Made by a program: the position numbers and the translations under genes | Part shown: positions 1 to 18,678 of the stretch, piece after piece | How positions within the stretch are numbered: the stretch's first letter is position 1 | How the letters are laid out: each line of letters starts with the position of its first letter | Assembly: GCA_943789275.1 (NCBI GenBank) | Contig: CALSTM010000001.1 | Location: 1 to 32,000 of the forward strand | DNA length: 32,000 nt | Direction: 5' to 3' | From: Candidatus Poseidoniaceae archaeon | Lineage (GTDB): Archaea; Thermoplasmatota; Poseidoniia; Poseidoniales; Poseidoniaceae | The notes under the pieces: model-generated | Database searches by the model: none | Told to the model about the DNA's origin: nothing | The model's input: the letters and a program-made list of their open reading frames with translations, nothing else

Positions 1-627
1 GTGCTCTTGCTCGCAGTCATTCTGCTGCCTTTCGCCAGTGCTGAGACCTATCGAATCTCTGGCCGGGCAACCTATGCAGACGGTTCAGCCGTCCAACTTG
101 ACTACGTCTCCGTTCAGTGTGAACAAGCGCAATTCGACTGTTACCAATACCGAGGAACCAATGTCTTAACCGATGCATATGGCGACTTTACCATCGTCAT
201 TGATGCTGACGCTGAAGAAGACGAACTGGATATTCTGCTTGCTCTGCGTGGTGAAACATTCCTCCATACCATCGATATCTCTGCGCATGAGGCATCTTCA
301 GAAGGCAAACTCTACCAAGACATTCAATTGGCACAAAATCCACCTCCATCTGGCGTATTCATGGGCTTTGGCTGTTTTCTTGTCCTCTTTGTTTTGGTTT
401 TCGTCTCCGTCTTGCTGCGAACCGGTCGTCGCCTTTCAACCGCCCAAGGTCGTAGGGAGTTTGCAGGTTTTCGACCAGCTCGAATGTTGGAATGTCCGAA
501 ATGCAAGGAGCCAGTCGTCCAACATGAACTAATCAAACATTTCATCATTGAGCACGATCTTGACCCTGTGGATGCTGGTCAACTGACGGGTAAGGTCATG
601 CGTCGCTTGTGGTCCGAAGAAGAGTGA
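1..627 (+). CDS. membrane-anchored protein: signal-peptide end, carboxypeptidase-regulatory-like ectodomain, one TM helix, cytoplasmic C2H2-like zinc finger (5' end probably outside window)
   Basis: The ORF is open to the window start. LLLAVILLPFASA/ETY looks like the end of a signal peptide. ETYRISGRATYADGS...TDAYGDFTI resembles a CarboxypepD_reg-type beta-sandwich. A hydrophobic stretch GVFMGFGCFLVLFVLVFVSVLL is followed by RTGRR. The C-terminal ECPKCKEPVVQHELIKHFIIEH gives C-x2-C-x11-H-x4-H. Stop TGA at 625-627. Confidence 0.6.
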   Translation: MLLLAVILLPFASAETYRISGRATYADGSAVQLDYVSVQCEQAQFDCYQYRGTNVLTDAYGDFTIVIDADAEEDELDILLALRGETFLHTIDISAHEASSEGKLYQDIQLAQNPPPSGVFMGFGCFLVLFVLVFVSVLLRTGRRLSTAQGRREFAGFRPARMLECPKCKEPVVQHELIKHFIIEHDLDPVDAGQLTGKVMRRLWSEEE

Positions 628-631
628 GCAA

Positions 632-719
632 TCACATGTTACGTCGGTATTGGCCACCAACGTTGAACAGCGCATCGGTAATTTGTCCGAGTGAGGCGAC
701 TTTGACGGTCTCCATCAAT
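632..719. repeat. left copy of 88-bp direct repeat: orphan duplicate of the icmF 3' end (last 27 aa + stop)
   Basis: 632-719 matches 3865-3952 at 85/88 positions (constant offset 3233 nt). On the minus strand it reads METVKVASLGQITDALFNVGGQYRRNM*, identical to the IcmF C-terminus. The 3 mismatches (633, 653, 659) are TGA/TAA stop, GGC/GGG Gly and GTT/GTC Val, all silent. Confidence 0.9.
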
Positions 720-797
720 CTCAAATAGAGTCATTACTGCAAAATGAATCACTGTAATTTTGACAATGCGTTCAAATACTGTGGTCAGATGAATTGA

Positions 798-1091
798 TTG
801 TGTCCCTCTTACATTACGTCTGTGTCTGTGGAAAATGCCTGGTCCGGAAAAGTCACACAAAGTGTAGACCTTCTTTCGGTTGAAGATGCTAGAAAAGCCC
901 TCTTCATTGCGGATCTTACTTCCAAGAATCTTGTCGATCACAATGTGCCAAACATTCCATTTCCCTCAAAATTATTCGACTTCAATTCCGAAAAACTTGT
1001 TTCAGTATTCTATGGTGCTAACGGCTCAGGAAAAACTACTGTAATGCAGTTAGTTAACGGTTTTTCCTCAATATTAAAGCCTCTTCTTTGA
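798..1091 (+). pseudogene. ATPase segment 1 (Walker A / P-loop)
   Basis: The sequence ...NVPNIPFPSKLFDFNSEKLVSVFYGANGSGKTTVMQLVNG... has the typical N-terminus of AAA_21/ABC-type ATPases. The track start is a TTG. GTG at 945 would give the usual ~25 residues before the P-loop. The segment ends CTT CTT TGA (1089-1091). Confidence 0.6.
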
Positions 1092-1155
1092 CCAACATAG
1101 CAATCAAATTACGAGAGGGGCATCTCTTGCAGACCTCAGCGATTGGAGTAACGGC

Positions 1156-1923
1156 GTGATACCAAAGGGTTTCCAAGATGAAAAGAATCCTCGTTGCATT
1201 AAGTTTCTTCAATTTGGAAATAATCCACTAATTGCAAACATCACTTCAAGTATGGTTCGTAGGCGTAACCCACCTTTTTCCTCTCCATTGGAATCCATAG
1301 ACTGGAGAAGTAAGTTTCGTTTTTCAATGGAGGGAGTATGCGTTACTCCTGAACTATGGGATTTGACCGAGGATGAAAGTAAAAAAGTAACTATTGACTC
1401 AAGGTATAAGATTGAATTACTACCAACAAATGGTGGAATTTGCCTTGATTCTAATGGTCTCATAAAGGATAATAAGAAGGTAATCGAGAATTTGGAAGGT
1501 ACTTTCTATGCTCTTCGAATTGAATCAACCTCGTTTGAGAACCACATTCAATCTAGCATTGGAAAAGAGCATGATGGCCCAATGATGGAAATCAAGAAAA
1601 CAGATGACGAAACTCTTCAACACTCAATGAAATACGAGATTCCTCTCATGATACATCCGGATGGAGGTGTTCTTGTAATGAGTAGAACAGTAATGGATTT
1701 CTCAGAACTTTGGAATCCCGAGAATTCGGAAAGAACTGAACGATTCTCTGGTATAGAGGAGGAGGATATCGTGGTGATGAACGAGGAAAAGAAGTCGCAT
1801 CTTCCACTACTACATTACATGCTTGAAAGACCTTATTTAGCCGACGCAATTGGTTTCAGTGACTTTTTCAACTCTTTATGCGTAGGTCCAGCTTCTGCCG
1901 AAGAAAGAAAATTGTCAATTTAG
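1156..1923 (+). CDS. hypothetical 255-aa ORF; most likely segment 2 of the interrupted ATPase (insertion domain)
   Basis: No motif was recognised. The frame is already open from 1078, overlapping the stop of segment 1, and the track start is a GTG. AT-rich codon usage matches the rest of the islet. Confidence 0.4.
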   Translation: MIPKGFQDEKNPRCIKFLQFGNNPLIANITSSMVRRRNPPFSSPLESIDWRSKFRFSMEGVCVTPELWDLTEDESKKVTIDSRYKIELLPTNGGICLDSNGLIKDNKKVIENLEGTFYALRIESTSFENHIQSSIGKEHDGPMMEIKKTDDETLQHSMKYEIPLMIHPDGGVLVMSRTVMDFSELWNPENSERTERFSGIEEEDIVVMNEEKKSHLPLLHYMLERPYLADAIGFSDFFNSLCVGPASAEERKLSI

Positions 1924-2596
1924 CCGACAAATGATGTACGAACTCTTTTCAGAAGGCACACGCAGTGATTTCTTTCTTTCGTTCGATATGAAACCCCACA
2001 TATCGAGGTGGAAAAGGCAATATGGCCCTTCCTTCACTTCTTGATAAATCACATTTTGAGCGTTGGGAAGAGACTTTGGAGAGCAGGGACGAAGCCTCTT
2101 TCGAGTGGAGTGTAGATCGCTGTCAAGGCATTGATTTTTACGACTTGGCCATTTCACTTCAGTCGGAGTATATTTGGCCATCGAATTACACCCCGAAGAA
2201 ACTGAAAATGCCTCCTAAGAAAGTGGGTCGATTTACCTAATTTAGACGTTCTCGACAATCGTGCAGTGTTCAACCATGCAAGATTGATTTTGAACACACC
2301 TGATACCGCCTATGATGCAATTACAGAATTTCTCTCAATGACTTTTGATAGCAACAATATCGAGGGCTTGTACGATGCCTTTGTCGAACTCAAATCACTT
2401 ATACCCAAATATCGTCAAGATTCCAAGAGATATGGGAACACTATTGACAGTTTCCTTTTTGGTGAAATTGTCTGGAATAAACCCAACAATTGCCATCCTT
2501 TCGACTGGTTGATGGAAAAAATACTCTGAATCCTTTACCGCTAAAGGCTTTGATGAAGAACATGCTAAGATTGCTGCACAATCTGAAATCAGACAT

Positions 2597-3076
2597 TTGA
2601 TTAAGAACGGTCTTGAACAGATTTGGTTCCAAGAACTTGAACAACATGTTGTTTCAAATCGATTTGAACTCATGAACCAATTGCTGGAGAAGTATCTTAA
2701 TATCTGCGTTCTTGAACCGAATCAAGGCTTCAACCCTAACCGCTTGTTGATTAGAAAAAATACGGATAAAACTCTTCCTCGTCATGGTAGGTTGAAACCA
2801 AATATAGCAATCAATCAATTCTCAAGCGGTATGAAGAATTTGTTTAATCTCATTATGGCACTTGGTAATACCGAAATAAAAGGGCCACTACTCATTGATG
2901 AACCTGAAATTTCACTTCACATTGATTGGGAATACGCATTGAAGGATATTGCCACAAGTTTAGCAGATTCGACGAAGCGTCAGATCATTTTCTCGACCCA
3001 CTCACCGGATTTAATCATGAACTTTGGTGACCGGTCGAAAGTGTTTTTATCGGAGTATGAGCATGATGGCGAATGA
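2597..3076 (+). pseudogene. ATPase C-terminal segment (signature motif, Walker B, D-loop, H-loop); frame open from 2513
   Basis: INQFSSGMKNLFNLIMALGNTEIKGPLLIDEPEISLHIDWEYALKDIATSLADSTKRQIIFSTHSPDLI is a canonical C-terminal half of an AAA_21/ABC ATPase. It lacks its own P-loop, so it cannot be a stand-alone ATPase. The track start at 2597 is a TTG. Confidence 0.7.
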
Positions 3077-3860
3077 TATCCTTCTCCCTTCTTCAAAACC
3101 TTCTTTGAAGAATCGCGTTCTTTTGAGAGCTAAAAACAATGAATCCATTATTTTAGTTGAAGGATGGGAAGACCGTCAGTTTGTTAAAAAGGTGATTGGA
3201 ACGAAGGAAGAACATTTTATTCAGGTTTGTGACGGAAAAGAAAATGTCGTCAGCTTTCTTAATACTGTGAACGATACTACGGAATCAACTGCTTTTGCTC
3301 TCGTAGACATTGATTATGATTGGGCAAGAGATGAACCTCCAAATTATCTTGAAAACGAACACATCTTCCACTATCCAGCGCATTCACTTGAATCTTTCAA
3401 ATTCTTTTTCGAAAATGACGAATTCATCTCAAACCATGTTCAAACTGGAAATATTTCATTTGCGATAAAATGTGCAGTGATTATAGGACGGTTACGGGCA
3501 TGGAACTCTTGGAGAGACTTGGGGAAAAATTTTGACAATAATCTAGACAATGTTAAGTTTGCATTCAATACCTCATTTCCTTCCCGCGATCATAATATTT
3601 TTCTCACACAACTTTTAGAAATTTTTGAACTTGGACCAAACTTCTATTCCAACACACTTGATCAACATCTCAATGCAGCACAAATGAATGATTCGTTCAT
3701 AATTCATGGAAAGGACTTGCACAAGTTTTTCACTTACATGCAAGATGGTAAAAGTTTCAGACTCATTAGTAACCATGAACTCTCGTTAAGAGTGAGAAAT
3801 AGCACAATGCACAGACAATTCTTGGAAGCCAACCTCATCAGTGCCGAGAATGGAAATTAA
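3057..3860 (+). CDS. Toprim-like (DUF4435 / PARIS AriB-like) putative nuclease
   Basis: The ORF is intact. ATG at 3057 (or ATG at 3063 with GGAG 7 nt upstream) overlaps the ATPase stop at 3074-3076, suggesting translational coupling. The N-terminal ESIILVEGWEDRQFV carries a Toprim-type Glu, and FALVDIDYDW carries the DxD motif, both as in DUF4435/OLD Toprim domains. Assignment is by motif only. Confidence 0.6.
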   Translation: MSMMANDILLPSSKPSLKNRVLLRAKNNESIILVEGWEDRQFVKKVIGTKEEHFIQVCDGKENVVSFLNTVNDTTESTAFALVDIDYDWARDEPPNYLENEHIFHYPAHSLESFKFFFENDEFISNHVQTGNISFAIKCAVIIGRLRAWNSWRDLGKNFDNNLDNVKFAFNTSFPSRDHNIFLTQLLEIFELGPNFYSNTLDQHLNAAQMNDSFIIHGKDLHKFFTYMQDGKSFRLISNHELSLRVRNSTMHRQFLEANLISAENGN

Positions 3861-3864
3861 CCGT

Positions 3865-3952
3865 TTACATGTTACGTCGGTATTGCCCACCGACGTTGAA
3901 CAGCGCATCGGTAATTTGTCCGAGTGAGGCGACTTTGACGGTCTCCATCAAT
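3865..3952. repeat. right copy of 88-bp direct repeat (functional 3' end of icmF)
   Basis: See 632-719. This copy is contiguous with the intact 1112-codon icmF ORF. Confidence 0.9.
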
Positions 3953-6900
3953 TCTTCAAACACGTTTCCTCCGAGCCTTGCAACTTCTTGCAATTGCTTG
4001 AGTGCGGCTTGGGTCACTTCACCCTCAACGGTTTGACGCTCAGTCACTCGCTCTAAGCACGCTTCTTTTTCTTCAGGCGTTGCACGTGCCAATTCCATTT
4101 CGAAATCATCGGCACTCGATTCATCGAACACCTGAGCATTCGGATTCTGGAAGGTATTGACACCAATAATTGGCAGTGTTCCATCGTGCTTGAGGTGTTC
4201 GTAATACATCGATTCATCCTGAATCTTACCACGCTGATACATGGTTTCCATTGCACCAAGAACGCCACCTCGTCGGCTGATGGCTTCGAACTCTTTGAGC
4301 ACAGCCTCTTCGACCAAATCGGTCAACTCGTCAACAATGAACGAGCCTTGCATTGGATTTTCAGTCTTGGTCCAGCCGCTTTCCTTGTTGACAATCAACT
4401 GGATGGCAAGGGCTCTACGAACACTTTCCTCGGTTGGCGTTGTGATGGCCTCATCGTAGGCGTTGGTGTGCAGAGAGTTTGCATTGTCTTGAATGGCAAG
4501 CAGGGCTTGGAGTGTCGTTCGAATATCGTTGAAGTCGATTTCTTGCGCGTGGAGGCTGCGTCCACTGGTTTGGATGTGATACTTGAGCTTCTGACTTCGC
4601 TCATCTGCATCATACAAGTCTCGCATGGTGATGGCCCAAATACGTCGAGCAACTCGGCCAATAACCGTGTATTCAGGGTCAAGTCCGTTACTGAAGAAGA
4701 ACGACAAGTTCGGTGCGAATTTGTTGATGTCCATACCTCGACTTCGATAGTATTCAACATAGGTAAAACCGTTGGCAAGTGTCAGTGCCAATTGCGTAAT
4801 TGGATTGGCTCCAGCCTCGGCAATATGGTAACCTGAAATCGAGACCGAGTAGTGGTTTCGCACACCTTGGTCAATGTAGTATTGCTGAACGTCGCCCATC
4901 ATCTTGAGTGCGAAAGGCGTTGAGAAGATACAGGTATTCTGTGCCTGGTCTTCTTTGAGAATGTCGGCTTGAACGGTTCCACGAACTGTCTGTAAGGTCC
5001 GTGCTTTGATTTCGCCGTAGGTGGCAGCATCGACCATTTCATCGCCTCGACGTCCAACGGTAGCAAGTCCAAACGCATTGTGACCTTCAGGCAAATCGCC
5101 TCTGTATGCTGCCTCTTTCAATTCGATACTCTTTCCTTCTTTGACAAGGTGTGCCTCAACCTGTTGGTCGATAGCAGCATTGAGGAAGAACGCGAGGATG
5201 ATTGGTGCAGGTCCGTTAATGGTCATGCTGACCGAAGTGTTCGGATCGCACAAATCAAATCCAGAATACAGACGCTTTGCATCATCGCATGTAGCAATAC
5301 TGACACCAGAGTTTCCAACCTTGCCCCAAATATCAGGGCGTCGAGCAGGGTCACGGCCATACAGAGTCACCGAGTCAAACGCTGTTGATAATCGAACGTA
5401 GTCTTGGCCTTTACTCAAGTAGTGGAATCGGCGATTGGTTCGCTCGGCCTCGCCTTCTCCTGCAAACATTCGAGCCGATAACTCGTCGGTTCGCTTGAAC
5501 GGGAACACGCCTGCTGTGAACGGGAAATGACCCGGAGCGTTCTCTCTCTTGATGAACGAAAACAATTCGCCGTCATCAGCAAAGGTCGGAAGAGCAACAC
5601 GAGGAATGTCGGAATGCGCTAAAGATTCGGTTGTGGTTTGGACCGTGAACGGCTTGCCCCGAACGTGATAGGTGAACTCGCCGCTTGAGTACTGTTCGGC
5701 AAGTGCTCGGAATGCAGACAATTCCTCTCGGGCCGTTTCAATCGATTCAAGAATCTCATCAATTTGTGCTTGCAGGTCAGCAGCGATGGTATTCGCACCA
5801 CGCTCAGTCGCATGGTTTGCAGCAGTCTCAAGGTGTTGGCACAAGCGCAATTGCTGTGCAACCGCTTCGTGTCCTGCATGGTATTCGCGCACCGTTGCCG
5901 CAATTTCGGACAGGTAGTAGATGCGTTCTGGAGGAATAACGCCCTTGGTCGTCCCCATCTCACCAACCGGTTCGCTCGCTTCAAAACCAACGATTTCAGA
6001 GAGTTTGCACCACAGCCGGTCAACACCACCGTCAGCAAATTGGCTGGCAATGGTCGCTACGACTGGAAGTTCTTCATCCGCAACGTCAAACATGTTTCTG
6101 TTGCGTCGAACTTGCTTTCGAATGGCCCGGAAGGCGTCTTCACTGCCACGCTTTTCGTACTTGTTGAGCACGACGATATCAGCGACATCGAGCATCTCGA
6201 TCTTTTCGAGTTGGGTATGTGCACCGAACTCAGCGGTCATGACGTAGAGCGAATGGTCGGCCACAGATGTGATGGCATCACTGCCTTGACCTATGCCGCT
6301 GGTCTCGCAGAAAATCATGTCAAATCCAACCGCTTTGGCCACCTCAATGGCTCGGTCGAGGTTGGCACTGATTTCAGAACCAGAGCCTCGGCTGGCGAGG
6401 CTTCGCATGAACAAGTCATTGTTCGAAAGTGAGTTCATCCGGATACGGTCGCCAAGCAACGCTCCTCCAGTTCGCTTTCGTGTCGGGTCAACGCACAGCA
6501 AGCAGACTTTCTTACCCGGATTGTCGCGTTGAATACGCAGCATCAATTCATCGAGCAGACTTGACTTTCCTGCTCCACCGGTTCCGGTGAAACCAATCAC
6601 GGGTATATCCTTGTCAGAAGACCGTGCAGTGGCGATGGCAGCCTTGAACGTCGCATCATCGGCGCTTTCTGACAGCGTCATCAACAAGCCAACTTTAGCC
6701 ATGTCTTCAGCAGTCACCGGTCCATCGATGGAAGCAAGTCTCGTTTCGCCAATCAAATCGACTTCGGATGCTTGGCCCATCAAGTGATGAATCATACCCA
6801 TGAGGCCCATGGTTCGCCCGTCGTCCGGTGAGTAAATCTTGGAGATCCCCGATTGATGCAGTGTTCGAATTTCTGGTGGCGTAATGGTTCCTCCACCGCC

Positions 6901-7203
6901 GCCAAAGATACGAACATGGTCGCATCCTGCTTCATCGAGCAGTTGACGAATGTAGGTGAAGTACTCAATGTGCCCACCTTGGTAGGAGGTTAGAGCCACA
7001 GCGTGAGCGTCTTCTTGGACAGCGCAATCAACCACAGCCTTGGCCGATTGGTCGTGACCCAAATGGATGACTTCAGCGCCCGAGGATTGAATCAATCTTC
7101 GCATGACGTTGATGGCTGCGTCGTGACCGTCGAACAGCGATGCTGCAGTGATGACACGGACCGGTCCGGTCGTCGTCTCGAATACGGGCTCTTCATCGGC
7201 CAT
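3865..7203 (-). CDS. icmF: fused isobutyryl-CoA mutase (B12-binding domain + MeaB-like G-protein + mutase substrate domain)
   Basis: 1112 aa. The N-terminal VITAASLFDGHDAAINVMRR carries the DxHxxG B12 motif. GFTGTGGAGKSSLLDEL is the MeaB-type P-loop. The large C-terminal domain is of the methylmalonyl/isobutyryl-CoA mutase type. Domain order and length match IcmF. Confidence 0.9.
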   Translation of the reverse strand: MADEEPVFETTTGPVRVITAASLFDGHDAAINVMRRLIQSSGAEVIHLGHDQSAKAVVDCAVQEDAHAVALTSYQGGHIEYFTYIRQLLDEAGCDHVRIFGGGGGTITPPEIRTLHQSGISKIYSPDDGRTMGLMGMIHHLMGQASEVDLIGETRLASIDGPVTAEDMAKVGLLMTLSESADDATFKAAIATARSSDKDIPVIGFTGTGGAGKSSLLDELMLRIQRDNPGKKVCLLCVDPTRKRTGGALLGDRIRMNSLSNNDLFMRSLASRGSGSEISANLDRAIEVAKAVGFDMIFCETSGIGQGSDAITSVADHSLYVMTAEFGAHTQLEKIEMLDVADIVVLNKYEKRGSEDAFRAIRKQVRRNRNMFDVADEELPVVATIASQFADGGVDRLWCKLSEIVGFEASEPVGEMGTTKGVIPPERIYYLSEIAATVREYHAGHEAVAQQLRLCQHLETAANHATERGANTIAADLQAQIDEILESIETAREELSAFRALAEQYSSGEFTYHVRGKPFTVQTTTESLAHSDIPRVALPTFADDGELFSFIKRENAPGHFPFTAGVFPFKRTDELSARMFAGEGEAERTNRRFHYLSKGQDYVRLSTAFDSVTLYGRDPARRPDIWGKVGNSGVSIATCDDAKRLYSGFDLCDPNTSVSMTINGPAPIILAFFLNAAIDQQVEAHLVKEGKSIELKEAAYRGDLPEGHNAFGLATVGRRGDEMVDAATYGEIKARTLQTVRGTVQADILKEDQAQNTCIFSTPFALKMMGDVQQYYIDQGVRNHYSVSISGYHIAEAGANPITQLALTLANGFTYVEYYRSRGMDINKFAPNLSFFFSNGLDPEYTVIGRVARRIWAITMRDLYDADERSQKLKYHIQTSGRSLHAQEIDFNDIRTTLQALLAIQDNANSLHTNAYDEAITTPTEESVRRALAIQLIVNKESGWTKTENPMQGSFIVDELTDLVEEAVLKEFEAISRRGGVLGAMETMYQRGKIQDESMYYEHLKHDGTLPIIGVNTFQNPNAQVFDESSADDFEMELARATPEEKEACLERVTERQTVEGEVTQAALKQLQEVARLGGNVFEELMETVKVASLGQITDALFNVGGQYRRNM

Positions 7204-9437: not shown

Positions 9438-11366
9438 TCAGAATGCCTTGATTTCTTCATCGTGAAGCTTCAGTAGGTTTCGCAACTTGACCTTCATTGA
9501 AGGTGTCAACATGTCGTTATCCGTTGTCCACTCGACAGGGTCGAGAATCAGGTTTGCAGCACGCTCATAGCCTTTCCAAGTTGGAGCTTGCATGTTCTTT
9601 TCTCTCAATTCAGCAAGAAGCCACTCACGGGTTGAAGCACGAGCACAAATGTCGGCATTGCTGCCAGATGCATCGACGCCAGCACTGGTAAGGGCCGGCT
9701 TGAGGGCATCCATATTCGGGTGAACGATGAGGTAGGTCTTCAACATGTTTCGACCATCGAGAACGGCTTGTTCAACGAGCGGTGAAAGTTTGAGGTTTTC
9801 TTCAAGAGGAGCAGGAGACACGTACTTTCCGTTTTCCAACTTGAATTGGCTCTTGACACGGCCGGTAATCGAAAGGTAGCCATCGGATGATAGTTTACCC
9901 AAGTCTCCAGTTCTGAAGACACCCGGTTCCATAATCACTTCTTTGGTAGCAGCCTCGTTGTTCCAGTATCCTTGCATAACGTTTGGACCATGAACAATGA
10001 TTTCTCCTTCGTCAGGGCGTTCAGGGTCGTCCCATGCATCGGTATCGATGGTCACTTTGACGCCGTTAGCAACTCGGCCTACACAGCGCAGTTTCGAGGT
10101 GCCTGGTCCAGCCCATCCGTTGGCAGAAACCAGCGGTGAAGTTTCGGTTAGGCCGTAACCTTCGTAGCAACTGAATCCAACTTGCTGGATGAATGCCGCT
10201 ACATCGGGGGAAAGTGCGGCTGCACCGGACATACAGAATCGGATGTTACCACCAAATCGAGCACGAACCTTTGACCAAACGAGTTTGTCGTAGAACTTGT
10301 CGAAGAAACCAGATGCAGGAACAGCGTCACATTCGACACCAGCCTTTTCAATTCGCTTTGCAGCGGATTTCTTTGCTTTACCAATCAAGAACTTCTTGAC
10401 ACCTGTTGCTTCATTGAATTGACTGTTGACTCGGTCGTAGAACTTGTTCCACACACGAGGTACTGCCAGAAGAACTGCAGGCTTGATTTCGATGCACTCA
10501 TCTGCAATACGAGTGAGTTCTGAAATGAGGTTAATGTGGACACCGCAGCGAATCATCCAGTGCAAGTCAAAGGTGCTACCAAAGGAGTGAGCCCAAGGAA
10601 GGAAAGCAGCGTTCTTATCGCCGACATAGACCTTGAATGCGGATTGAACGCACAGTACGTTGGACAGCGTGTTCCAGTTGGTGAGCATGACACCCTTTGG
10701 GTTGCCAGTGGTACCGGAAGTGTAGATGAGCGTGTTGAGTGCAAACGGATCGTCTGCAACTTCAAACGTGTTCTCGCTTGCTCGTCCTGCGGCAACGAAA
10801 TCAGCCCATGCGTGTACTTCGATTCCTTCAGGAGGTATTTCATTTGCCGGTTCGTCACCGAGCAAAACCACACCGCATCGAGGCCATGCTGCAGCATCGC
10901 TTGGAAGGTGCTTGACCAGTTTGTCAAGGATTTCTGTGTTTGCTACTGCGAGCATCGAAGGTGTAGAATCGTTGAGGATGTACGCCCATTCATCGCCGTG
11001 TTGGTGCGTGTACATAGCGGTGTATGCTGCACCGATTCCGTTTGCGCCGTAAGCCATAGCAGCCCACTCGACACTGTTGTCAAGAATCAAAGCAATTCGT
11101 TCACCGGCTGCGACTCCTGCATCTGCCAGTTGCTGGCCAACAGCGGTGGCGAGTTCTCCGAATTCGTTGTATGTAATGTGGACACGTGGTGCGCCCTTAG
11201 CAGGAATATATCCGAAGCAATCGTTTGGTCCAAATCGTCCGACGCTGGTCATCAACATCTGGTAAACAGTACGTGGGTCATCGCCCTCGGGTTTCTCCCA
11301 TTGTCGGTCGTCCGGTTGTCGCTCCCATGCCATCTGCAGTTCTGCCATGAACACTAAGTGTAGCAT
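9438..11366 (-). CDS. long-chain fatty-acid--CoA ligase (AMP-forming, ANL superfamily)
   Basis: LIYTSGTTGNPKGVMLT AMP-binding motif, plus GYGLTETS, FRTGDLG and KLENGKYV. About 640 aa, as in ACSL-type enzymes. An alternative start ATG lies at 11348. Confidence 0.9.
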   Translation of the reverse strand: MLHLVFMAELQMAWERQPDDRQWEKPEGDDPRTVYQMLMTSVGRFGPNDCFGYIPAKGAPRVHITYNEFGELATAVGQQLADAGVAAGERIALILDNSVEWAAMAYGANGIGAAYTAMYTHQHGDEWAYILNDSTPSMLAVANTEILDKLVKHLPSDAAAWPRCGVVLLGDEPANEIPPEGIEVHAWADFVAAGRASENTFEVADDPFALNTLIYTSGTTGNPKGVMLTNWNTLSNVLCVQSAFKVYVGDKNAAFLPWAHSFGSTFDLHWMIRCGVHINLISELTRIADECIEIKPAVLLAVPRVWNKFYDRVNSQFNEATGVKKFLIGKAKKSAAKRIEKAGVECDAVPASGFFDKFYDKLVWSKVRARFGGNIRFCMSGAAALSPDVAAFIQQVGFSCYEGYGLTETSPLVSANGWAGPGTSKLRCVGRVANGVKVTIDTDAWDDPERPDEGEIIVHGPNVMQGYWNNEAATKEVIMEPGVFRTGDLGKLSSDGYLSITGRVKSQFKLENGKYVSPAPLEENLKLSPLVEQAVLDGRNMLKTYLIVHPNMDALKPALTSAGVDASGSNADICARASTREWLLAELREKNMQAPTWKGYERAANLILDPVEWTTDNDMLTPSMKVKLRNLLKLHDEEIKAF

Positions 11367-11404: not shown

Positions 11405-12172
11405 TTACCCGTTCAATACTGAAATGACGTTTTCCCGCCAGTCTGCTCCTTCGTTGCGGTTGGCCAAAGGACTTGCAGGACTGGGGTGCCAACAGGTGTC
11501 AATACGCACACTGCGGCCGTCTCTGCTCGTGCCATCACCCGATTTTCCGGCCTCCAATGCCATTCGAGCTCGTTGTTCGGCATACTTCCCAACACCGATG
11601 ATTCGTGTAATACCCATAATGTCGACCACGTCAAGGAGGTGCTCATCGCATGCTTTCAGAATCGGGTTCATAACGGATGCTGGAAGGTTATTCGGTGTGA
11701 TGTTTTTCCCCGTTTCGCCAAGGAGTAACAGTGGGCAATGATTGACAACGAAGATGTTGCTGAAGGTCGATTCAGCCGAACCATAGTGCTGTTCCATGAG
11801 ATTCCATAATCGCGTTCCTGAGATTTCTTGCCGTTCGAGAGCCATTCCTTCAATTGGACGTTTTGGATGTGCGTTTTCTGGGGTCTTCAGTTCACGGGCT
11901 TCAATTTCCAGAAACGATTGTGCAACGGCAGTTGCACCGAACGGCACGCCGGTTTGCGCCATGCCCCAAGGGCCAGGATTCATTCCAAGCAGCAGCGTGT
12001 GGCTGCCGAGGTTTCCCCATTTGAGCAAGAATTGTTCATGGTGGGGCCAAGCATAGTCGAGTGGGTTTGTGGCATGGGCAACAATGGTTTTTTTCTCAAG
12101 AGTCGCAATTGCGGCATCGCATATCTTGGACAAGCGCTGCGCTGCTTGTGCAAGTTGTTCGCCGATGTCCAT
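11405..12172 (-). CDS. SMUG1-type uracil-DNA glycosylase (UDG family 3)
   Basis: LGMNPGPWGMAQTGVPFG and WHPSPASPLANR closely match the two SMUG1 signature motifs (GMNPGPxGMAQTGVPFG; HPSPRNPxAN). Confidence 0.85.
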   Translation of the reverse strand: MDIGEQLAQAAQRLSKICDAAIATLEKKTIVAHATNPLDYAWPHHEQFLLKWGNLGSHTLLLGMNPGPWGMAQTGVPFGATAVAQSFLEIEARELKTPENAHPKRPIEGMALERQEISGTRLWNLMEQHYGSAESTFSNIFVVNHCPLLLLGETGKNITPNNLPASVMNPILKACDEHLLDVVDIMGITRIIGVGKYAEQRARMALEAGKSGDGTSRDGRSVRIDTCWHPSPASPLANRNEGADWRENVISVLNG

Positions 12173-12661: not shown

Positions 12662-12863
12662 GGTGTTGTTACCGCCGGTGTTGTTGCCGGTGTTGTTACC
12701 GCCAGTGTTGTTACCGCCGGTGTTGTTTCCGCCGGTGTTGTTCCGCCGGTGTTGTTACCGCCAGTGTTGTTACCGCCGGTGTTGTTACCGCCGGTGTTGT
12801 TTCCGCCGGTGTTGTTACCGCCGTGTTGTTACCGCCGCCCGTGTTGTTACCGCCAGTGTTGTT
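12662..12863. repeat. 15-nt microsatellite, ~13.5 units of GGTGTTGTTACCGCC (minus strand GGC GGT AAC AAC ACC = GGNNT)
   Basis: Read directly from the sequence. There is one 12-nt unit (12677-12688), two 14-nt units (12734-12747, 12823-12836) and one extra GCC (12837-12839). Confidence 0.9.
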
Positions 12864-13181: not shown

Positions 13182-14718
13182 GGTGTTGTTTCCGCCGTTG
13201 TTTCCTCCACCGCTTGTTTGATTCAAGACCGAGAAGTAATCGTAATCGGAATCCAATTGTATCCAGGTTTGGTTGGCATCATAATAGCCAAGAACAGCAT
13301 AGAAATCATACGTTCCTGATTGGGTGAGCGTGGTGTTCCAAATTTCATTGGTATAGGTTGAGTTGCTTGCGATCCACGACATGTTTCCTGAATCAACGGT
13401 AGAGTTCGATGCGTCAAGAATCGAGTAATCAAGGGTCATGGTCATGTTCACAAGTCCACAATAGACGCTCATGCTTCCGGTGAAGGTGTCGTTCACGTAG
13501 TAGTACGATGAATACGAATAGGCATAGAGGGAAGTGTATGACGCATCATCACCGCATCCACCGGTGTTGTTTCCGCCGTTGTTTCCTCCACCGCTTGTTT
13601 GATTCAAGACCGTGAATGTATCATAGCCCGTATCCAGTTGTATCCAGGTTTGGTTGGCATCGATAATAGCCAAGAACAGCATAGAAACCATACGTTCCAG
13701 ATTGAGTGAGCGTGGTGTTCCAAATTTCATTGGTATAGGTTGAGTTGCTTGCGATCCACGACATGTTTCCTGAATCAACGGTAGAGTTCGATGCGTCAAG
13801 AATCGAGTAATCAAGGGTCATGGTCATGTTCACAAGTCCACAATAGACGCTCATGCTTCCAGTAAAGGTGTCGTTCACGTAGTAATACGATGAATACGAA
13901 TAGGCATAGAGGGAAGTGTATGACGCATCATCACCGCATCCACCGGTGTTGTTTCCGCCGTTGTTTCCTCCACCGCTTGTTTGATTCAAGACCGTGAATG
14001 TATCATAGCCCGTATCCAGTTGTAGTCCAGGTTTGGTTGGCATCGATAATAGCCAAGAACAGCATAGAAACCATACGTTCCTGATTGAGTGAGGGTGGTG
14101 TTCCAAATTTCATTGGTATAGTTTGAGGTGCTTGCGATCCACGACATGTTTCCTGAATCAACGGTAGAGTTCGATGCGTCAAGAATCGAGTAATCAAGGG
14201 TCATGGTCATGTTCACAAGTCCGCAATTGACGCTCATGACACCGGTGAAGGTGTCGTTCACGTAGTAGTACGATGAATACGAATAGGCATAGAGGGAAGT
14301 GTATGACGCATCATCACCGCATCCCCGGTGTTGTTTCCACCGGTGTTGTTTCCGCCGTTGTTTCCTCCACCGCTTGTTTGATTCAAGACCGTGAATGTAT
14401 CATAGCCCGTATCCAGTTGAGTCCAGGTTTGGTTGGCATCATAATAGCCAAGAACTGCATAGAAACCATACGTTCCTGCTTGCGTGAGGGTCGTGTTCCA
14501 AAATTCGTAGGTATAGTTTGAGGTGATTGGGACCCACGACATGTTTCCTGAATCAACGGTAGAGTTGGATGCGTCAAGAATCGAGTAATCAAGGGTCATG
14601 GTCATGTTCACAAGTCCGCAATTGACGCTCATGACACCGGTGAAGGTGTCGTTCACGTAATAATACGATGAAAACGAATAGGCGTAGAGGGAGGTGTAAG
14701 ACGCATCGTTGCCACAAC
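13182..14718. repeat. tandem ~381-bp repeat, 4 near-identical copies (127-aa domain plus GGGNNGGNNTGG linker)
   Basis: The landmark cgcttgtttgattcaagacc recurs at 13211, 13592, 13974 and 14371, giving periods of 381, 382 and 397 nt. The encoded unit is CGDDASYTSLYAYSYSSYYYVNDTFTG...LGYYDANQTWIQLDTGYDTFTVLNQTSGGGNN. Confidence 0.9.
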
Positions 14719-15376: not shown

Positions 15377-17188
15377 CTATTCCTGTTCAAAATAAAGGGA
15401 ATATTCATCGTTCCAATCGATGGACGTCGCCTTGAACCACTCTTCAGCGGAATCAAACGCTTCTTGCCCGGGATTCTTTCGTTTACGCTTGGCACGCTGT
15501 GAAATGAGTTTCCAAGCAGTCTTTTCGCCGATGCCTGGAATGGCCTCTAATTGCTTTTGAGACACTTTTTCTGCCTGAAGTCCGGTTTCAACCCCTGTGA
15601 TCGAACGAGCTCCGTGTCCAGTAACAACGACGGTCGATTGAGTTTCGAGCGGAATATGGTATTCGACGCCAATGAGTATTGGATAAGCACCGATTTGCCT
15701 TCCAAAGGTGATGCCGGCTTTACCTCGGCATGACTCCGCAGTATGCGCTTCATTGAGGTGCGCAGTAAGTCTCGTTCGACCATCATGCGTCTCCCAATGC
15801 ACACCGGATAATTTTTCACCCAAAGGGAATAATTCTTCAAGGAGTGGGCCATCAATGGTGTCGCGAACGTTAGTTTTGAACGTGTTAAACGCTTTTTGAG
15901 GAATGTCTTGAAATCCTTCTCCTTCGACTTGCCGGATGTTAATACGGCGCAATAACAAACCCTCTCGGCGAATTTCATGCAGTAAGTCAAGGTTCATCTG
16001 GTAACTCGCCTCTGTTTCACCGTTTAACCCAGCAATAAAATTGAGTCCAGGTAGCAACTTTGGCAAACCTCTTTCTCCACGAACTGAACCGTATGTATTG
16101 ATCAGTCGTATTGCTGACTTGAGTTGAGCAGGGTCGCAATTGAGCCAATTCGCTTCGTGGACACTTGGGTCAGCTGATTCAAGACCAAATGAAAGTACGG
16201 CGCCATCAGATAATGTCTCAACGAGCGTTTTTGTGATTGCTTCGGATTCTTCGAGGTTTTCAGCAATGATTGAGGGGTTGCCGTTGTCGGTGTGAAGGAT
16301 TCCTAAACGCTCATCATCGCGTAAACCATGAAGCAGTTTGGCAATCGGCTCTGGATTTGGAACTGGATATTCAAGTTCCTTTACGCCTTCTGCCATGTAG
16401 GTGTAGGTGTCGGTCATGCCTCCAAGCCGAACATGCTGCACTCCTCCATCGTGAGCTCGACGAACTTCTTCGATAATGTCTTCCGGAGTTCGCCAAATCG
16501 GGACACCCTTCTTTGGTTCAATACAGAATTTGCATCCACGCTTGTAACGTACACATCCTTGGTAGACTTCGACTTCGTAGGTGAGGGGGCCTTTCTTTTC
16601 GTCAGTGCCAAGGTCAGGATGGGTTGTTACTGCCTTACTTAACGCCCCAGCCTGAGCCCATCGCGTCCATTGTTCTGCGCTCCGACGAGTGTGCTTCCAC
16701 GCCCCAGTTTCAAGATAGGTGTTCAGCGTTGCATCCGTGTCTTGAACGGCCAAAAAGAGATTCTTCCGCAGTGGTGTCCATCCTTGTTGCCTCCAACCAC
16801 GAATCGCCCATCCACCAAACAAAGCCGGAATTGAATGCGGTAGGTCTCGTATAAGGCTACGAGTTTCCTTTAGAGACAGTGGAGTTCCACGCAGATAGCG
16901 CCCTGGTACAACGGCTCCAGCAATACAAGCAAACCCTTCAAGTGTGGAAAGTCGTTTTTTTGCCCACTCATCACCGTTGCTGCGAATCAAGTCTCTCCAC
17001 TGATCGATGGTGAGATAATCGTAGTCGACATTCGCTTCTTCAAGCACTCCACAAAGATAGCGGATATGAAATCCAACATAAGGTGGGACACCAAACGCAG
17101 CTGGCTCATCTTCATAGCCGTCAAGAATCAACCATTTGGGTGAATGCTGTTCGACCATGTTGGCTAACCTCAGGTCGGTTGGCTTCAA
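15377..17188 (-). CDS. radical-SAM-type Fe-S enzyme with C-terminal helix-hairpin-helix (COG1031-like, function unknown)
   Basis: The Cys cluster GCVRYKRGCKFCIEP (C-x6-C-x2-C) is a variant of CX3CX2C. About 600 aa. The C-terminal LEAIPGIGEKTAWKLISQR is an HhH motif. The TTG start at 17188 overlaps the csl4 stop (TTGA). An alternative ATG lies at 17158. Confidence 0.6.
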   Translation of the reverse strand: MKPTDLRLANMVEQHSPKWLILDGYEDEPAAFGVPPYVGFHIRYLCGVLEEANVDYDYLTIDQWRDLIRSNGDEWAKKRLSTLEGFACIAGAVVPGRYLRGTPLSLKETRSLIRDLPHSIPALFGGWAIRGWRQQGWTPLRKNLFLAVQDTDATLNTYLETGAWKHTRRSAEQWTRWAQAGALSKAVTTHPDLGTDEKKGPLTYEVEVYQGCVRYKRGCKFCIEPKKGVPIWRTPEDIIEEVRRAHDGGVQHVRLGGMTDTYTYMAEGVKELEYPVPNPEPIAKLLHGLRDDERLGILHTDNGNPSIIAENLEESEAITKTLVETLSDGAVLSFGLESADPSVHEANWLNCDPAQLKSAIRLINTYGSVRGERGLPKLLPGLNFIAGLNGETEASYQMNLDLLHEIRREGLLLRRINIRQVEGEGFQDIPQKAFNTFKTNVRDTIDGPLLEELFPLGEKLSGVHWETHDGRTRLTAHLNEAHTAESCRGKAGITFGRQIGAYPILIGVEYHIPLETQSTVVVTGHGARSITGVETGLQAEKVSQKQLEAIPGIGEKTAWKLISQRAKRKRKNPGQEAFDSAEEWFKATSIDWNDEYSLYFEQE

Positions 17189-18678
17189 TCCTTCTTCTCG
17201 CGTCGACGTCGAGGACGCTTCTTTGAATCCTCTTCCTCTTCACGAAGTGCTTGAAGTTCACGGGATGATTTACCACCGGAGTTGTCAGAACCACGCTTTT
17301 CACGGTTGTTACCGCCTTTCTTTCCGCCTTGAGATACATCGACTTTGATGCGTCGTCCGAGCAATTCAGAACCGTTGAGTTTAGAGACAATTTCTTCACC
17401 CTTATCCATTTCCTTGATGAAGGCAAAAGCGAATCCCTTTGGTTTTCCATCACCACTGGTGGCGATAACAAGGCCGTTGACGGTTGCCATACCATCGAAC
17501 ATGGCTCGGATGTTTTCTTCAGTTGCCTTGAACGGAAGATTTCCGATGTAAAGTTTGAGTCCTTCAGGGTCCTTACGCTTTTCTCGCTTGCCCTTCTTGT
17601 CATCGCTGTCAGCATCTCGCACACCGATTTTACGGCCGTTGATTTTGTGGCCGTTGAGTTTTTCAGCTGCCGCATCCGCTTGAGACTTTTCAGAGTAAGT
17701 GACGAAACCGAATCCTCGGTTGACACCATTATCATCGGTCAACACAATACAATCGGTCATGTCGCCGTGTTCAGCAAACAGTGCACGAAGTTCTTCAGTT
17801 CCAACTTCACGCGGTAGGCCACCAACAAACAATCGGCAACCTGGTGCGTTTCGTGGACGGCGTCCTTTACCACCGCTCTCGCCTTCGAATCGGAAGTAGG
17901 TACGTTCACGGCCGTCTTCACGGACATCTGCTGCGATGAAGGTTGCTCGTCCTGCTGGTCCCTTGCCAAACATGGCCTCTGCAGCAGCACCCCAGCGCTT
18001 ACCGGAGTTGTTGAGCGCACTTGCACCTTGGTCGAGTTCAGCCCAACCAGCGCCGTAGTTGTCAGCGAGTGCTCGGTACGATTGGTAGTTGCATGTTGGA
18101 CATCGGACGTTCCAATCTCCATCGAGGTCAGCGCCCAACACATCGCCACACGATGGGCATATGGCATGGAGTACACCGCAGTCGTCACGGTCACGGAAAC
18201 TGATGCGTAAAACGGGGGATGTTTCTTTGACTTCTGCTCGACAGACATCTCGTCGTCGAACTGCGTCAGCGGTTTGGTGCATGTAGCGGTCGACTATTCC
18301 AGTGACGTGAAACTGACCGTAGAGGTGTTCAGGCAGAACGCTACCGGGCTTGCCTTCGATGCAAAGAACCTGAGCCTCTCCGTTCTTTTCGTTGAGTTTG
18401 ACAATTTCACAAAGCACGGTATCGCCGACTTCTGGTGTGACAATTTCCTTTTGAGCGGCAACGATGGCGATGCCGTCTTGAATTGAAAACATGCCTGTTG
18501 CGGTTGCTAAAATCGATCCATTGACTTCAATGGTTCCATCTCCAGCCTCGCATTCTGCTGAGGTTGATACTTGTGTTCCGGGGGTGACGAGGCTCGGCGT
18601 CATATTTTTCATTCCTGTAGCAAACATGGCCTGAGGTAGGTCGCATGCTGTTTCGCTTGATTGAACCGGTGTGTTCAC
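17185..18678 (-). CDS. csl4: exosome cap subunit Csl4 (N-domain + S1 + Zn-ribbon) fused to two C-terminal RRM domains and a basic tail
   Basis: Residues ~30-205 carry VTPGTQV..., GDTVLCEIVKL...AQVLCI (S1) and CPSCG...x...CPTCN (Zn-ribbon), as in archaeal Csl4. RRM1 spans aa 282-355 (RNP2 LFVGGL, RNP1 RGFGFVTY). RRM2 spans aa 374-448 (LYIGNL, KGFAFAFI). The Lys/Arg-rich tail is KKRPRRRREKKD. Confidence 0.85.
   Translation of the reverse strand: MNTPVQSSETACDLPQAMFATGMKNMTPSLVTPGTQVSTSAECEAGDGTIEVNGSILATATGMFSIQDGIAIVAAQKEIVTPEVGDTVLCEIVKLNEKNGEAQVLCIEGKPGSVLPEHLYGQFHVTGIVDRYMHQTADAVRRRDVCRAEVKETSPVLRISFRDRDDCGVLHAICPSCGDVLGADLDGDWNVRCPTCNYQSYRALADNYGAGWAELDQGASALNNSGKRWGAAAEAMFGKGPAGRATFIAADVREDGRERTYFRFEGESGGKGRRPRNAPGCRLFVGGLPREVGTEELRALFAEHGDMTDCIVLTDDNGVNRGFGFVTYSEKSQADAAAEKLNGHKINGRKIGVRDADSDDKKGKREKRKDPEGLKLYIGNLPFKATEENIRAMFDGMATVNGLVIATSGDGKPKGFAFAFIKEMDKGEEIVSKLNGSELLGRRIKVDVSQGGKKGGNNREKRGSDNSGGKSSRELQALREEEEDSKKRPRRRREKKD

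What the first reader, a model, noticed from the sequence alone, without database searches (positions are those of the whole stretch)
798..3860. Cargo is an OLD/PARIS-like ATPase + Toprim(DUF4435-like) pair with an unusually long ATPase, in an archaeal genome
Seen: an ABC-type ATPase (P-loop GANGSGKTT; QFSSGMKNLF; LLIDEPEISLH; STHSPD) is followed by an overlapping ORF with Toprim-type motifs (ILVEGWEDRQF, LVDIDYD). Established: the two-gene combination of an ABC ATPase plus a separate DUF4435 Toprim nuclease defines the bacterial PARIS (AriA/AriB) abortive-infection system and is related to OLD/Gabija nucleases. Inference: this is a divergent member. About 600 codons separate Walker A from the signature motif, much longer than I expect for AriA and closer to an SMC/Rad50-like spacing. 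The host looks archaeal, and the pair rides on a small inserted islet. It is a candidate variant defence module not matching a described architecture.
Basis: partly seen in the sequence, partly recalled or inferred. Interest (0 to 1): 0.8.

Follow-up and report, generated by a model that had tools for sequence, protein, structure and literature searches.

The report
Frameshifted PARIS-like defence pair, marine archaeon
A 3.2-kb insert in a marine Group II archaeon (Poseidoniaceae) carries a divergent relative of the bacterial PARIS anti-virus system, an unusually long sensor ATPase plus a Toprim nuclease, but in this sequence the ATPase gene is broken by six single-base insertions.

Summary
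The motifs, the roughly 600-codon spacing, the overlapping downstream ORF, the archaeal host and the small inserted islet are all real. The 267-aa ORF (3057-3860) passes Pfam DUF4435 and PADLOC AriB. All five acidic Toprim residues of E. coli AriB align with invariant residues in it. The ATPase belongs to AAA_15/AAA_21, and its closest solved relative is AriA.

Intact relatives are 747-777 aa against 464 aa for AriA. Walker A and the signature motif lie 595 residues apart, against about 326 in an AriA homologue. The region between has no detectable homologue and is proline-rich, so it is not an SMC/Rad50-type coiled coil.

The family is tiny. It always pairs the same two genes, and wherever downstream sequence exists it abuts the 3' end of the icmF-like mutase gene of Poseidoniales.

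It meets the published Pfam score rule for PARIS, which was already reported in bacteria and archaea. I therefore rate it a new variant of a known kind.

In this window the ATPase gene carries six unique +1 homopolymer insertions. They are absent from two contigs that are otherwise 99.9% identical. Whether they are real or an artefact is unresolved.

The parts
634..719 (.). Left copy of the 86-nt direct repeat. It is a partial duplicate of the 3' end of the mutase gene and marks the left edge of the insert.
   Evidence: the repeat finder gives 634-719 against 3867-3952, 98% identical, spacing 3233. In the empty sites L025 and L064 a single copy abuts the left-flank gene.
798..3076 (+). AriA-like ABC ATPase gene (AAA_15/AAA_21), interrupted by six +1 single-base insertions. 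The intact form is 756 aa.
   Evidence: Six tiled frames. Pfam and PADLOC hits on the N- and C-terminal pieces. Intact orthologues P0008/L013 and L095 at 99.9% nucleotide identity. AriA is the best PDB sequence hit at 2.9e-12.
1014..1040 (+). Walker A / P-loop, GANGSGKTT.
   Evidence: Translation of 798-1088. The motif is invariant in the family.
1078..2815 (+). Inter-motif region of about 555-595 aa, specific to this family, with no detectable homologue. It is the putative enlarged sensor/assembly module.
   Evidence: No Pfam or PADLOC hit for 1156-1920, 2022-2237 or 2266-2526. A profile of this region finds nothing in the PDB. It is conserved across the family. The AF2 model has low confidence here.
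804..2516 (+). Span holding the six window-specific 1-nt insertions, at about 804, 1087, 1908, 1994, 2236 and 2516. Each lengthens an existing run of the same base.
   Evidence: Alignments with L001/L003/L005, L013 and L095.
2816..3010 (+). ABC signature (QFSSGM), Walker B/D-loop (LLIDEPEISLH) and H-loop (STHSPD).
   Evidence: Translation of 2513-3073. 43% identity over 72 aa to an AriA homologue, hhalign probability 98%. AriA 8ux9_B alignment.
3057..3860 (+). AriB-like Toprim (DUF4435) nuclease gene, intact, 267 aa. Putative catalytic residues are E35 (3159-3161), D39 (3171-3173), D84 (3306-3308), D86 (3312-3314) and E112 (3390-3392).
   Evidence: Pfam DUF4435 at 31.6 bits and PADLOC AriB at 8.4e-11. 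Alignment with AriB 8ux9_A. AF2 model pLDDT 85.5 with a beta-alpha Toprim core. No window-specific change in this gene compared with L013 and L095.
3867..3952 (.). Right copy of the direct repeat. It is the functional 3' end of the icmF-like mutase gene (3865-7203, minus strand).

Best explanation
The islet cargo is a two-gene, translationally coupled anti-virus module of the PARIS type. A long ABC ATPase (AriA-like, 756 aa when intact) is followed by a DUF4435-type Toprim nuclease (AriB-like, 267 aa).

By analogy with E. coli PARIS, I infer this mechanism. The ATPase forms an oligomeric scaffold that holds the nuclease inactive. It senses a viral protein through its variable inter-motif region. 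On ATP-dependent triggering it releases the nuclease. The nuclease then cuts a host nucleic acid, tRNA in PARIS, and stops translation and growth of the infected cell.

What differs here is the ATPase. The stretch between Walker A and the signature motif is about 270 aa longer than in an AriA homologue. It is proline-rich, probably globular and family-specific. I read it as an enlarged or different sensor/assembly module.

The module belongs to a very small clade. Every member with sequence downstream of the Toprim gene lies beside the 3' end of the icmF-like mutase gene of Poseidoniales archaea.

In this particular sequence the ATPase frame is broken six times by +1 homopolymer insertions, while the nuclease gene is untouched. 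As written, the module cannot make the ATPase. Whether that is biology or a sequence artefact cannot be decided without reads.

Shown: homology, motifs, gene linkage, purifying selection, insertion and the frameshifts. Inferred: sequestration and release, the trigger, and the substrate.
For: - Toprim gene: DUF4435 at 31.6 bits (above the gathering score of 27) and PADLOC AriB at 8.4e-11.
- MAFFT alignment with AriB 8ux9_A puts family-invariant E35, D39, D84, D86 and E112 on AriB E26, D30, D88, E90 and E122. These are the residues named as the two-metal Toprim site, and E26A abolishes defence (PMC11464382).
- The AF2 model of the nuclease has pLDDT 85.5 and pTM 0.83, with four beta strands alternating with helices.
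- Intact ATPase P0008: AAA_21 at 70.9 bits, AAA_15 at 55.3 bits; best PADLOC model is AriA at 3.9e-20.
- Best PDB sequence hit is AriA at 2.9e-12. hhalign to an AriA homologue gives 98% probability and 43% identity over the signature-to-H-loop block, including the shared IDEPEISLHIDW.
- Even the poor ATPase model ranks AriA chains first (not significant).
- The two genes are adjacent and overlapping in every relative, down to 26-28% ATPase identity.
- Among intact relatives, dN/dS is 0.25-0.30 for the ATPase and 0.25-0.47 for the nuclease.
- The islet is an insertion with empty sites in related genomes.
Against: - Only about 90 N-terminal residues of the nuclease match DUF4435/AriB models (profile positions 4-88 of 238).
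- Neither the protein nor its family profile finds AriB in the PDB by sequence. hhalign to AriB alone gives 3.5% probability. Foldseek of the good model finds no significant match, AriB included.
- Only Walker A and the last 72-85 residues of the ATPase align with AriA. The rest is unmatched and could not be modelled (pLDDT 46.7). The oligomeric architecture and the nuclease-binding surface are therefore unknown.
- In this window the ATPase gene is frameshifted six times.
- No function has been tested in any member.
Confidence: 0.65

Rival explanations
1. The copy in this window is a genuine dead remnant. The ATPase gene was inactivated in this lineage by slippage mutations, leaving an orphan nuclease gene and no working defence system.
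For: - There are six frame-breaking +1 insertions, confined to the ATPase gene.
- The other roughly 28 kb of the window shows no broken gene, so a platform-wide error rate cannot explain them.
- One of the two window-specific substitutions (1494) replaces the family-invariant Phe231 with Leu.
- A second genome, L001, also has its ATPase N-terminus disrupted.
- By analogy, AriB without AriA is only mildly toxic, so an orphan nuclease is tolerable (PMC11464382).
Against: - Six indels against two substitutions, no deletions, and no change at all in the adjacent nuclease gene is not what neutral decay produces. Tens of substitutions would be expected (my inference from usual indel-to-substitution ratios).
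- Two independent contigs (L013 from ENA, L095 from JGI) carry the same island at 99.9% identity without any of the insertions.
- L001 also has single-base insertions that break its mutase gene, so it is an error-prone assembly.
Confidence: 0.4
2. The six insertions are artefacts of sequencing, consensus building or data handling in a strain-variable, low-GC islet. The organism carries an intact, working module identical to that of L013/L095.
For: - All six are +1 extensions of an existing run of the same base. None is a deletion.
- The indel-to-substitution ratio is 6:2.
- Two independent contigs that are near-identical elsewhere lack them all.
- The family is under purifying selection.
Against: - The errors would have to be confined to about 1.7 kb of a 32-kb window that is otherwise clean.
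- Several affected runs are only 1-3 bases long, which is not typical of homopolymer miscalls (my knowledge).
- There is no read evidence either way.
Confidence: 0.5
3. The pair is an ATPase + Toprim system of another OLD-like kind (AbiL, RloAB, or class-1 OLD/Gabija-like) that degrades DNA rather than tRNA, or it acts mainly as an addiction module that keeps the islet in place.
For: - The PADLOC AbiLi model also hits the ATPase (1.7e-16; it is the best model for the N-terminal fragment at 2.4e-6).
- mad3/mad4 models hit weakly.
- OLD-like_TOPRIM and DUF3226 give sub-threshold hits.
- The C-terminal helical half of the nuclease, which would carry substrate specificity, has no detectable similarity to AriB.
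Against: - DUF4435 is the only Toprim family above its curated threshold. OLD-like_TOPRIM scores 15.8 bits against a gathering score of 23.2.
- AriA and AriB are the best PADLOC models for both genes, and AriA is the best PDB hit.
- No AbiLii or RloB model hits the nuclease.
- ATPase and Toprim are separate genes, and no UvrD-type helicase lies beside them in the window.
Confidence: 0.2

Closest known systems
PARIS (AriA/AriB) of E. coli B185 and its homologues (PDB 8ux9, 8v45-8v49)
   Same: - Two co-oriented, overlapping genes: an ABC ATPase of AAA_15/AAA_21 type followed by a DUF4435 Toprim protein.
- The shared ATPase block LIDEPEISLHIDW.
- All five acidic Toprim residues conserved in register, plus the HSLE motif.
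- Carried on an inserted, low-GC islet and found among other defence genes.
   Different: - The ATPase is 747-777 aa against 464 aa. Walker A to signature is 595 aa, against about 326 in an AriA homologue. The extra sequence has no homologue.
- Only the first 90 or so residues of the nuclease match DUF4435. Its C-terminal helical half is not detectably AriB-like.
- The host is an uncultured marine archaeon.
- The locus is fixed next to the icmF-like mutase rather than in a P4-like satellite hotspot.
- Function is untested.
AbiL (AbiLi/AbiLii) of Lactococcus and RloAB-type ATPase + Toprim pairs
   Same: They have the same general two-gene layout of an ABC ATPase plus a separate Toprim nuclease. 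The AbiLi model hits the ATPase.
   Different: No AbiLii or RloB model hits the nuclease, whereas DUF4435/AriB models do. AbiLi is much shorter (model length 326).
OLD nucleases (class 1 P2 Old, Ts OLD 6p74) and Gabija GajA
   Same: They share the AAA_15/21-type ABC ATPase and a two-metal Toprim nuclease. Ts OLD is a weak PDB hit at 3.3e-4.
   Different: There the ATPase and Toprim are fused in one polypeptide, and Gabija adds a UvrD-like helicase. Here they are separate genes with no helicase partner. OLD-like_TOPRIM scores below its threshold.
Rad50/SMC ATPases
   Same: They share the split ABC head with a long insertion between Walker A and the signature motif. Rad50 heads appear among the weak fold matches.
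   Different: No long coiled coil is plausible. The insert has 29 prolines, a longest Pro-free stretch of 72 aa, and many conserved Trp/Cys/Gly. There is no hinge or zinc-hook motif.

Membership tests
PARIS (AriA/AriB) | Adjacent genes scoring AAA_15 >= 32 or AAA_21 >= 27 bits, together with DUF4435 >= 27 bits. This is the detection rule of Rousset et al. 2022 (PMC9122126). | tested here: met
   The window's C-terminal ATPase ORF scores AAA_21 53.4 and AAA_15 52.3. Intact P0008 scores 70.9 and 55.3. The nuclease scores DUF4435 31.6. Profile coverage is low, about 23-36%, so coverage filters in DefenseFinder or PADLOC might reject it. Those tools were not run.
PARIS (AriA/AriB) | AriB Toprim metal-binding residues E26, D30, D88, E90 and E122. 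| tested here: met
   E35, D39, D84, D86 and E112 are invariant in the family and align with these positions of 8ux9_A. The residue list comes from PMC11464382.
PARIS (AriA/AriB) | Full-length DUF4435/AriB similarity, including the C-terminal region used for dimerisation. | tested here: not met
   The Pfam match covers profile positions 4-88 of 238. There is no PDB sequence hit. hhalign to AriB gives 3.5% probability. Foldseek against the PDB finds nothing significant.
PARIS (AriA/AriB) | AriA ATPase catalytic motifs: Walker A Lys, signature, Walker B Glu and H-loop. | tested here: met
   K78, SSGM at 673, LLIDEPE at 695 and STHSP at 730 in P0008. All are invariant in the family. In the window they lie in different frames.
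PARIS (AriA/AriB) | AriA size and architecture: about 464 aa, helical IS1/IS2 and a coiled-coil that build the hexameric propeller. | tested here: not met
   The family is 747-777 aa. Only Walker A and the last 72-85 aa align with AriA. The inter-motif profile has no PDB homologue. The structure could not be predicted (pLDDT 46.7).
PARIS (AriA/AriB) | Both genes intact in the locus under study. | tested here: not met
   The ATPase gene has six +1 insertions. The nuclease gene is intact.
PARIS (AriA/AriB) | Triggered by viral anti-restriction proteins, with released AriB cleaving tRNA. | not testable with these tools
   This needs expression and biochemistry.
OLD family / Gabija GajA | ATPase and Toprim fused in one protein, OLD-like_TOPRIM domain above threshold, and for Gabija a UvrD-like GajB partner. 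| tested here: not met
   They are two genes. OLD-like_TOPRIM scores 15.8 bits against a gathering score of 23.2. No helicase lies in the islet.
AbiL | AbiLi ATPase together with an AbiLii-type Toprim partner. | tested here: inconclusive
   The AbiLi model hits at 1.7e-16, but only over the common ATPase block. No AbiLii model hits the nuclease at E <= 1.
SMC/Rad50-like ATPase | A long antiparallel coiled coil between the two halves of the ABC head. | tested here: not met
   There are 29 Pro in residues 91-660, and the longest Pro-free stretch is 72 aa. SMC_N scores below threshold.

The most novel reading that the evidence does not exclude
The long-ATPase pairs form a distinct, archaeon-specific subtype of PARIS-like immunity. 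In this reading, a new module of about 270-290 aa in the ATPase senses viruses of Marine Group II archaea and builds an assembly different from the AriA hexamer. The 3.2-kb cassette, which has no integrase of its own, would be exchanged among Poseidoniaceae by recombination at an 86-nt copy of the mutase gene's 3' end.
Probability: 0.3. Interest if true: 0.65.

Novelty: new variant of a known kind. Interest (0 to 1): 0.45.

Why it matters
Marine Group II archaea are abundant in the surface ocean, are uncultured, and have little described antiviral machinery. This family gives a concrete, compact two-gene candidate for study.

It keeps the catalytic core of PARIS but replaces and enlarges the part of the ATPase thought to recognise viral triggers. 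It is therefore a natural test of how sensor modules are swapped in ABC-ATPase immune systems.

Its fixed position beside the mutase gene, with present, absent and alternative cargo states, marks a defence hotspot. That hotspot could be mined in Poseidoniales metagenomes.

For this particular window the practical message is more modest. The ATPase gene as given is not translatable, so any annotation or expression work should start from the intact version (L013/L095).

Tried and rejected
- Foldseek of the good nuclease model against the PDB and BFVD found nothing significant. The best Toprim-like hit was 2fcj at probability 0.3-0.4.
- AF2 of the ATPase with 8 sequences gave pLDDT 46.7, which is unusable for the insert. 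Foldseek on that model ranked AriA and Rad50 heads first, but not significantly.
- Sequence and profile searches of the nuclease against the PDB found nothing. hhalign of the family profile against the single AriB sequence found only the HSLE motif.
- A profile of the inter-motif region against the PDB found nothing. Pfam, PADLOC and NCBIfam gave nothing for that region.
- Pattern-based locus searches with the ATPase alignment found no relative in GTDB genomes or JGI metagenomes. The nuclease alignment and a DNA pattern found nothing in IMG/VR. I saw no evidence that the module is virus-borne.
- I first read the AMP-binding and UDG ORFs (9438-11366, 11405-12172) as a frameshifted single gene, because L001 has a 911-aa call there. 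Pfam shows two different proteins, so the fusion is L001's error.
- I first took the 83% flank identity to L013 as a sign of transfer between distant hosts. L095 shows that the flanks are about 97-99% identical except for a divergent patch at 499-701.
- I considered programmed frameshifting or phase variation. I rejected it because intact relatives need no shift and six sites would all have to slip.
Full report
**What is in the window**

Between 798 and 3076 the plus strand has no single long ORF. Instead there are six open frames that tile the region: 798-1088, 1078-1920, 1886-2041, 1992-2237, 2206-2526 and 2513-3073. Each is shifted by +1 relative to the one before. The first frame carries the P-loop GANGSGKTT. 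The last carries QFSSGM, LLIDEPEISLH and STHSPD. An intact ORF of 267 codons (3057-3860) overlaps the last frame by 20 nt and carries ILVEGWEDRQF and LVDIDYD.

Pfam gives AAA_21 (5.5e-14) and AAA_15 (9.2e-14) for the C-terminal ATPase piece. The N-terminal piece gives weak P-loop hits. The three middle pieces give nothing. The downstream ORF scores 31.6 bits on DUF4435, above the gathering score of 27. PADLOC gives AriA (3.3e-15) and AriB (8.4e-11) as the best models.

**The ATPase is genuinely long, and it is broken here**

Database searches found a very small family. The nuclease query found 6 protein clusters, and its family profile found 10, among 5.8 billion sequences. For the ATPase there are 9 full-length clusters of 747-777 aa. 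An HMM search of 1.84 billion representatives gave only 17 hits at E <= 1e-30. The next hits are ordinary AAA_15 proteins, mostly of about 340-510 aa, that match only the ATPase head.

Intact genes occur on contigs L003 (756 aa), L005 (749 aa), L002 (745 aa), L008 (748 aa), L009-L012 (749 aa) and L013 (756 aa). In P0008, Walker A K78 and signature S673 are 595 residues apart. The corresponding distance is about 326 in an AriA homologue.

L013 (ENA) and L095 (JGI) are identical to window 720-3866 except for 2-3 substitutions. They lack six single-base insertions that the window has at about 804, 1087, 1908, 1994, 2236 and 2516. Each insertion lengthens an existing run of the same base. The first merely moves the start codon from GTG (800) to TTG (798). 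The other five break the frame.

The nuclease gene and the rest of the islet show no window-specific change. The other roughly 28 kb of the window shows no disrupted gene.

A ratio of six indels to two substitutions, with all indels being +1, fits neither neutral decay nor uniform sequencing error. One substitution (1494) replaces the invariant Phe231.

**Is the nuclease a Toprim of the AriB kind?**

The family alignment has invariant E35, D39, K61, N63, D84, D86 and E112. I recovered the AriB sequence of PDB 8ux9 through a Pseudoalteromonas PARIS locus. Aligned with the family, AriB E26, D30, D88, E90 and E122 fall on E35, D39, D84, D86 and E112. The motifs LVEG..D and HSLE are shared. Burman et al. 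name those five residues as the two-metal Toprim site and show that E26A abolishes defence (PMC11464382).

The AF2 model is confident (pLDDT 85.5, pTM 0.83). It has a beta-alpha-beta core followed by a helical C-terminal half.

The limits are as follows:
- The Pfam and PADLOC matches cover only the first 90 or so residues.
- Neither the protein nor its profile finds AriB in the PDB by sequence.
- hhalign to AriB alone is weak.
- Foldseek finds nothing significant.

**The ATPase compared with AriA**

The family profile's best PDB hit is AriA (8ux9_B, 8v45_A; 2.9e-12). It aligns over the last 85 residues plus a weak Walker A match. hhalign to an AriA homologue gives 98% probability and 43% identity over 72 residues, including IDEPEISLHIDW.

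Nothing matches the inter-motif region. Pfam, PADLOC, NCBIfam and a dedicated profile search against the PDB all gave nothing. That region is well conserved within the family, with many invariant Trp, Cys, Gly and Pro. It holds 29 prolines, and its longest Pro-free stretch is 72 aa, just before the signature motif. An SMC/Rad50-type coiled coil is therefore not supported.

In AriA this part of the protein holds IS1, IS2 and the helical blades that build the hexamer and are thought to sense triggers. It is the least conserved part among PARIS clades (PMC11464382). Reading the enlarged region as a different sensor/assembly module is an inference.

**Linkage, selection and context**

In every relative the ATPase gene is followed by an overlapping gene of the same nuclease family. 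This holds even for ATPases only 26-28% identical to P0008: L096 (hhalign probability 100%) and L097 (99%). Among intact relatives, dN/dS is 0.25-0.30 for the ATPase and 0.25-0.47 for the nuclease.

Two longer contigs place the pair in defence-type neighbourhoods:
- L008 has GmrSD, an N6_N4 methyltransferase, a second AAA_15 ATPase and a ResIII helicase.

**Host and islet**

The flanking icmF-like mutase is 94-96% identical to those of Ca. Poseidoniaceae MAGs, so the host is a Marine Group IIa archaeon.

The islet has low GC. It is bounded by an 86-nt direct repeat (634-719 and 3867-3952, 98% identical) that duplicates the mutase 3' end. In L025 and L064 the mutase stop directly abuts the left-flank gene, which is an empty site. 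L015 has a different 171-aa ORF at the same spot. No integrase lies in the islet.

Every family member with sequence downstream of the nuclease gene abuts the same mutase C-terminus, including the most divergent ones. The second repeat copy is seen only in the window's own clade. None of the 80 GTDB loci fetched around the mutase carries the islet. Nothing related was found in IMG/VR.

**Comparison with what is known, and verdict**

The original PARIS detection rule is AAA_15 >= 32 or AAA_21 >= 27 bits together with DUF4435 >= 27 bits in adjacent genes. [quoted passage not shown] This pair meets those scores, so it is not a new architecture at the level of gene content.

It fails two membership features: AriA-like size and architecture, and full-length AriB similarity. 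Its low profile coverage may make automated tools miss it. I therefore file it as a new variant of a known kind: a PARIS-like pair with a long, family-specific ATPase insert, confined so far to Poseidoniales and tied to one chromosomal hotspot.

Interest is moderate. It is lowered by the broken state of this copy and by the lack of any structural handle on the insert.

Noticed in passing
window 634-719 and 3867-3952; L002, L006, L007, L008, L009, L013, L095, L096: The region just downstream of the icmF-like mutase stop codon behaves as a defence hotspot in Poseidoniales. The ATPase/Toprim pair abuts the mutase 3' end in all relatives with downstream sequence, even at 28% ATPase identity. In L008 it is the last unit of an island of more than 10 kb carrying GmrSD, a methyltransferase, an AAA_15 ATPase and a helicase. 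The 86-nt duplication of the mutase end occurs only in the window's clade, and no integrase is present.
   Followed up: partly
L015:4748-5263: The closest GTDB relative has a different cargo at the same spot: a 171-aa ORF with no Pfam match lying between the mutase and the left-flank gene. Its mutase C-terminus also appears frameshifted.
   Followed up: partly
window 499-701: This patch covers the end of the left-flank gene and most of the left repeat copy. It is about 79% identical to L013/L095, while the sequence on either side is 97-99.9% identical. In the window the two repeat copies are 98% alike, against about 85% in L013/L095. This suggests gene conversion or a recombination endpoint.
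   Followed up: partly
window 12662-12863 and 13182-14707: There is a 15-nt tandem repeat (13.6 copies) and a 382-nt tandem repeat (4 copies, 94% matches). Both lie inside minus-strand ORFs with no Pfam match, probably a repetitive surface protein. This stretch aligns poorly and with many gaps with L001.
   Followed up: no
window 17185-18678 (minus strand): A 497-aa ORF carries two RRM_1 RNA-recognition motifs (2.2e-31). To my knowledge this domain is uncommon in archaea.
   Followed up: no
L001 (JGI Ga0494229_00107), for example 4956, 6261, 11821: This syntenic 643-kb contig carries scattered single-base insertions. They split its mutase gene into three calls and fuse the AMP-binding and UDG genes. 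It also has 8 indels in the islet's first 450 bp. It looks like an error-prone long-read assembly and should not be used as a reference for gene integrity.
   Followed up: partly
window 720-3866 compared with flanks 272-498 and 3874-4679: The islet is 99.9% identical to L013/L095, while the adjacent core flanks differ by about 1-3%. This is compatible with a recent spread of the cassette among closely related strains.
   Followed up: partly
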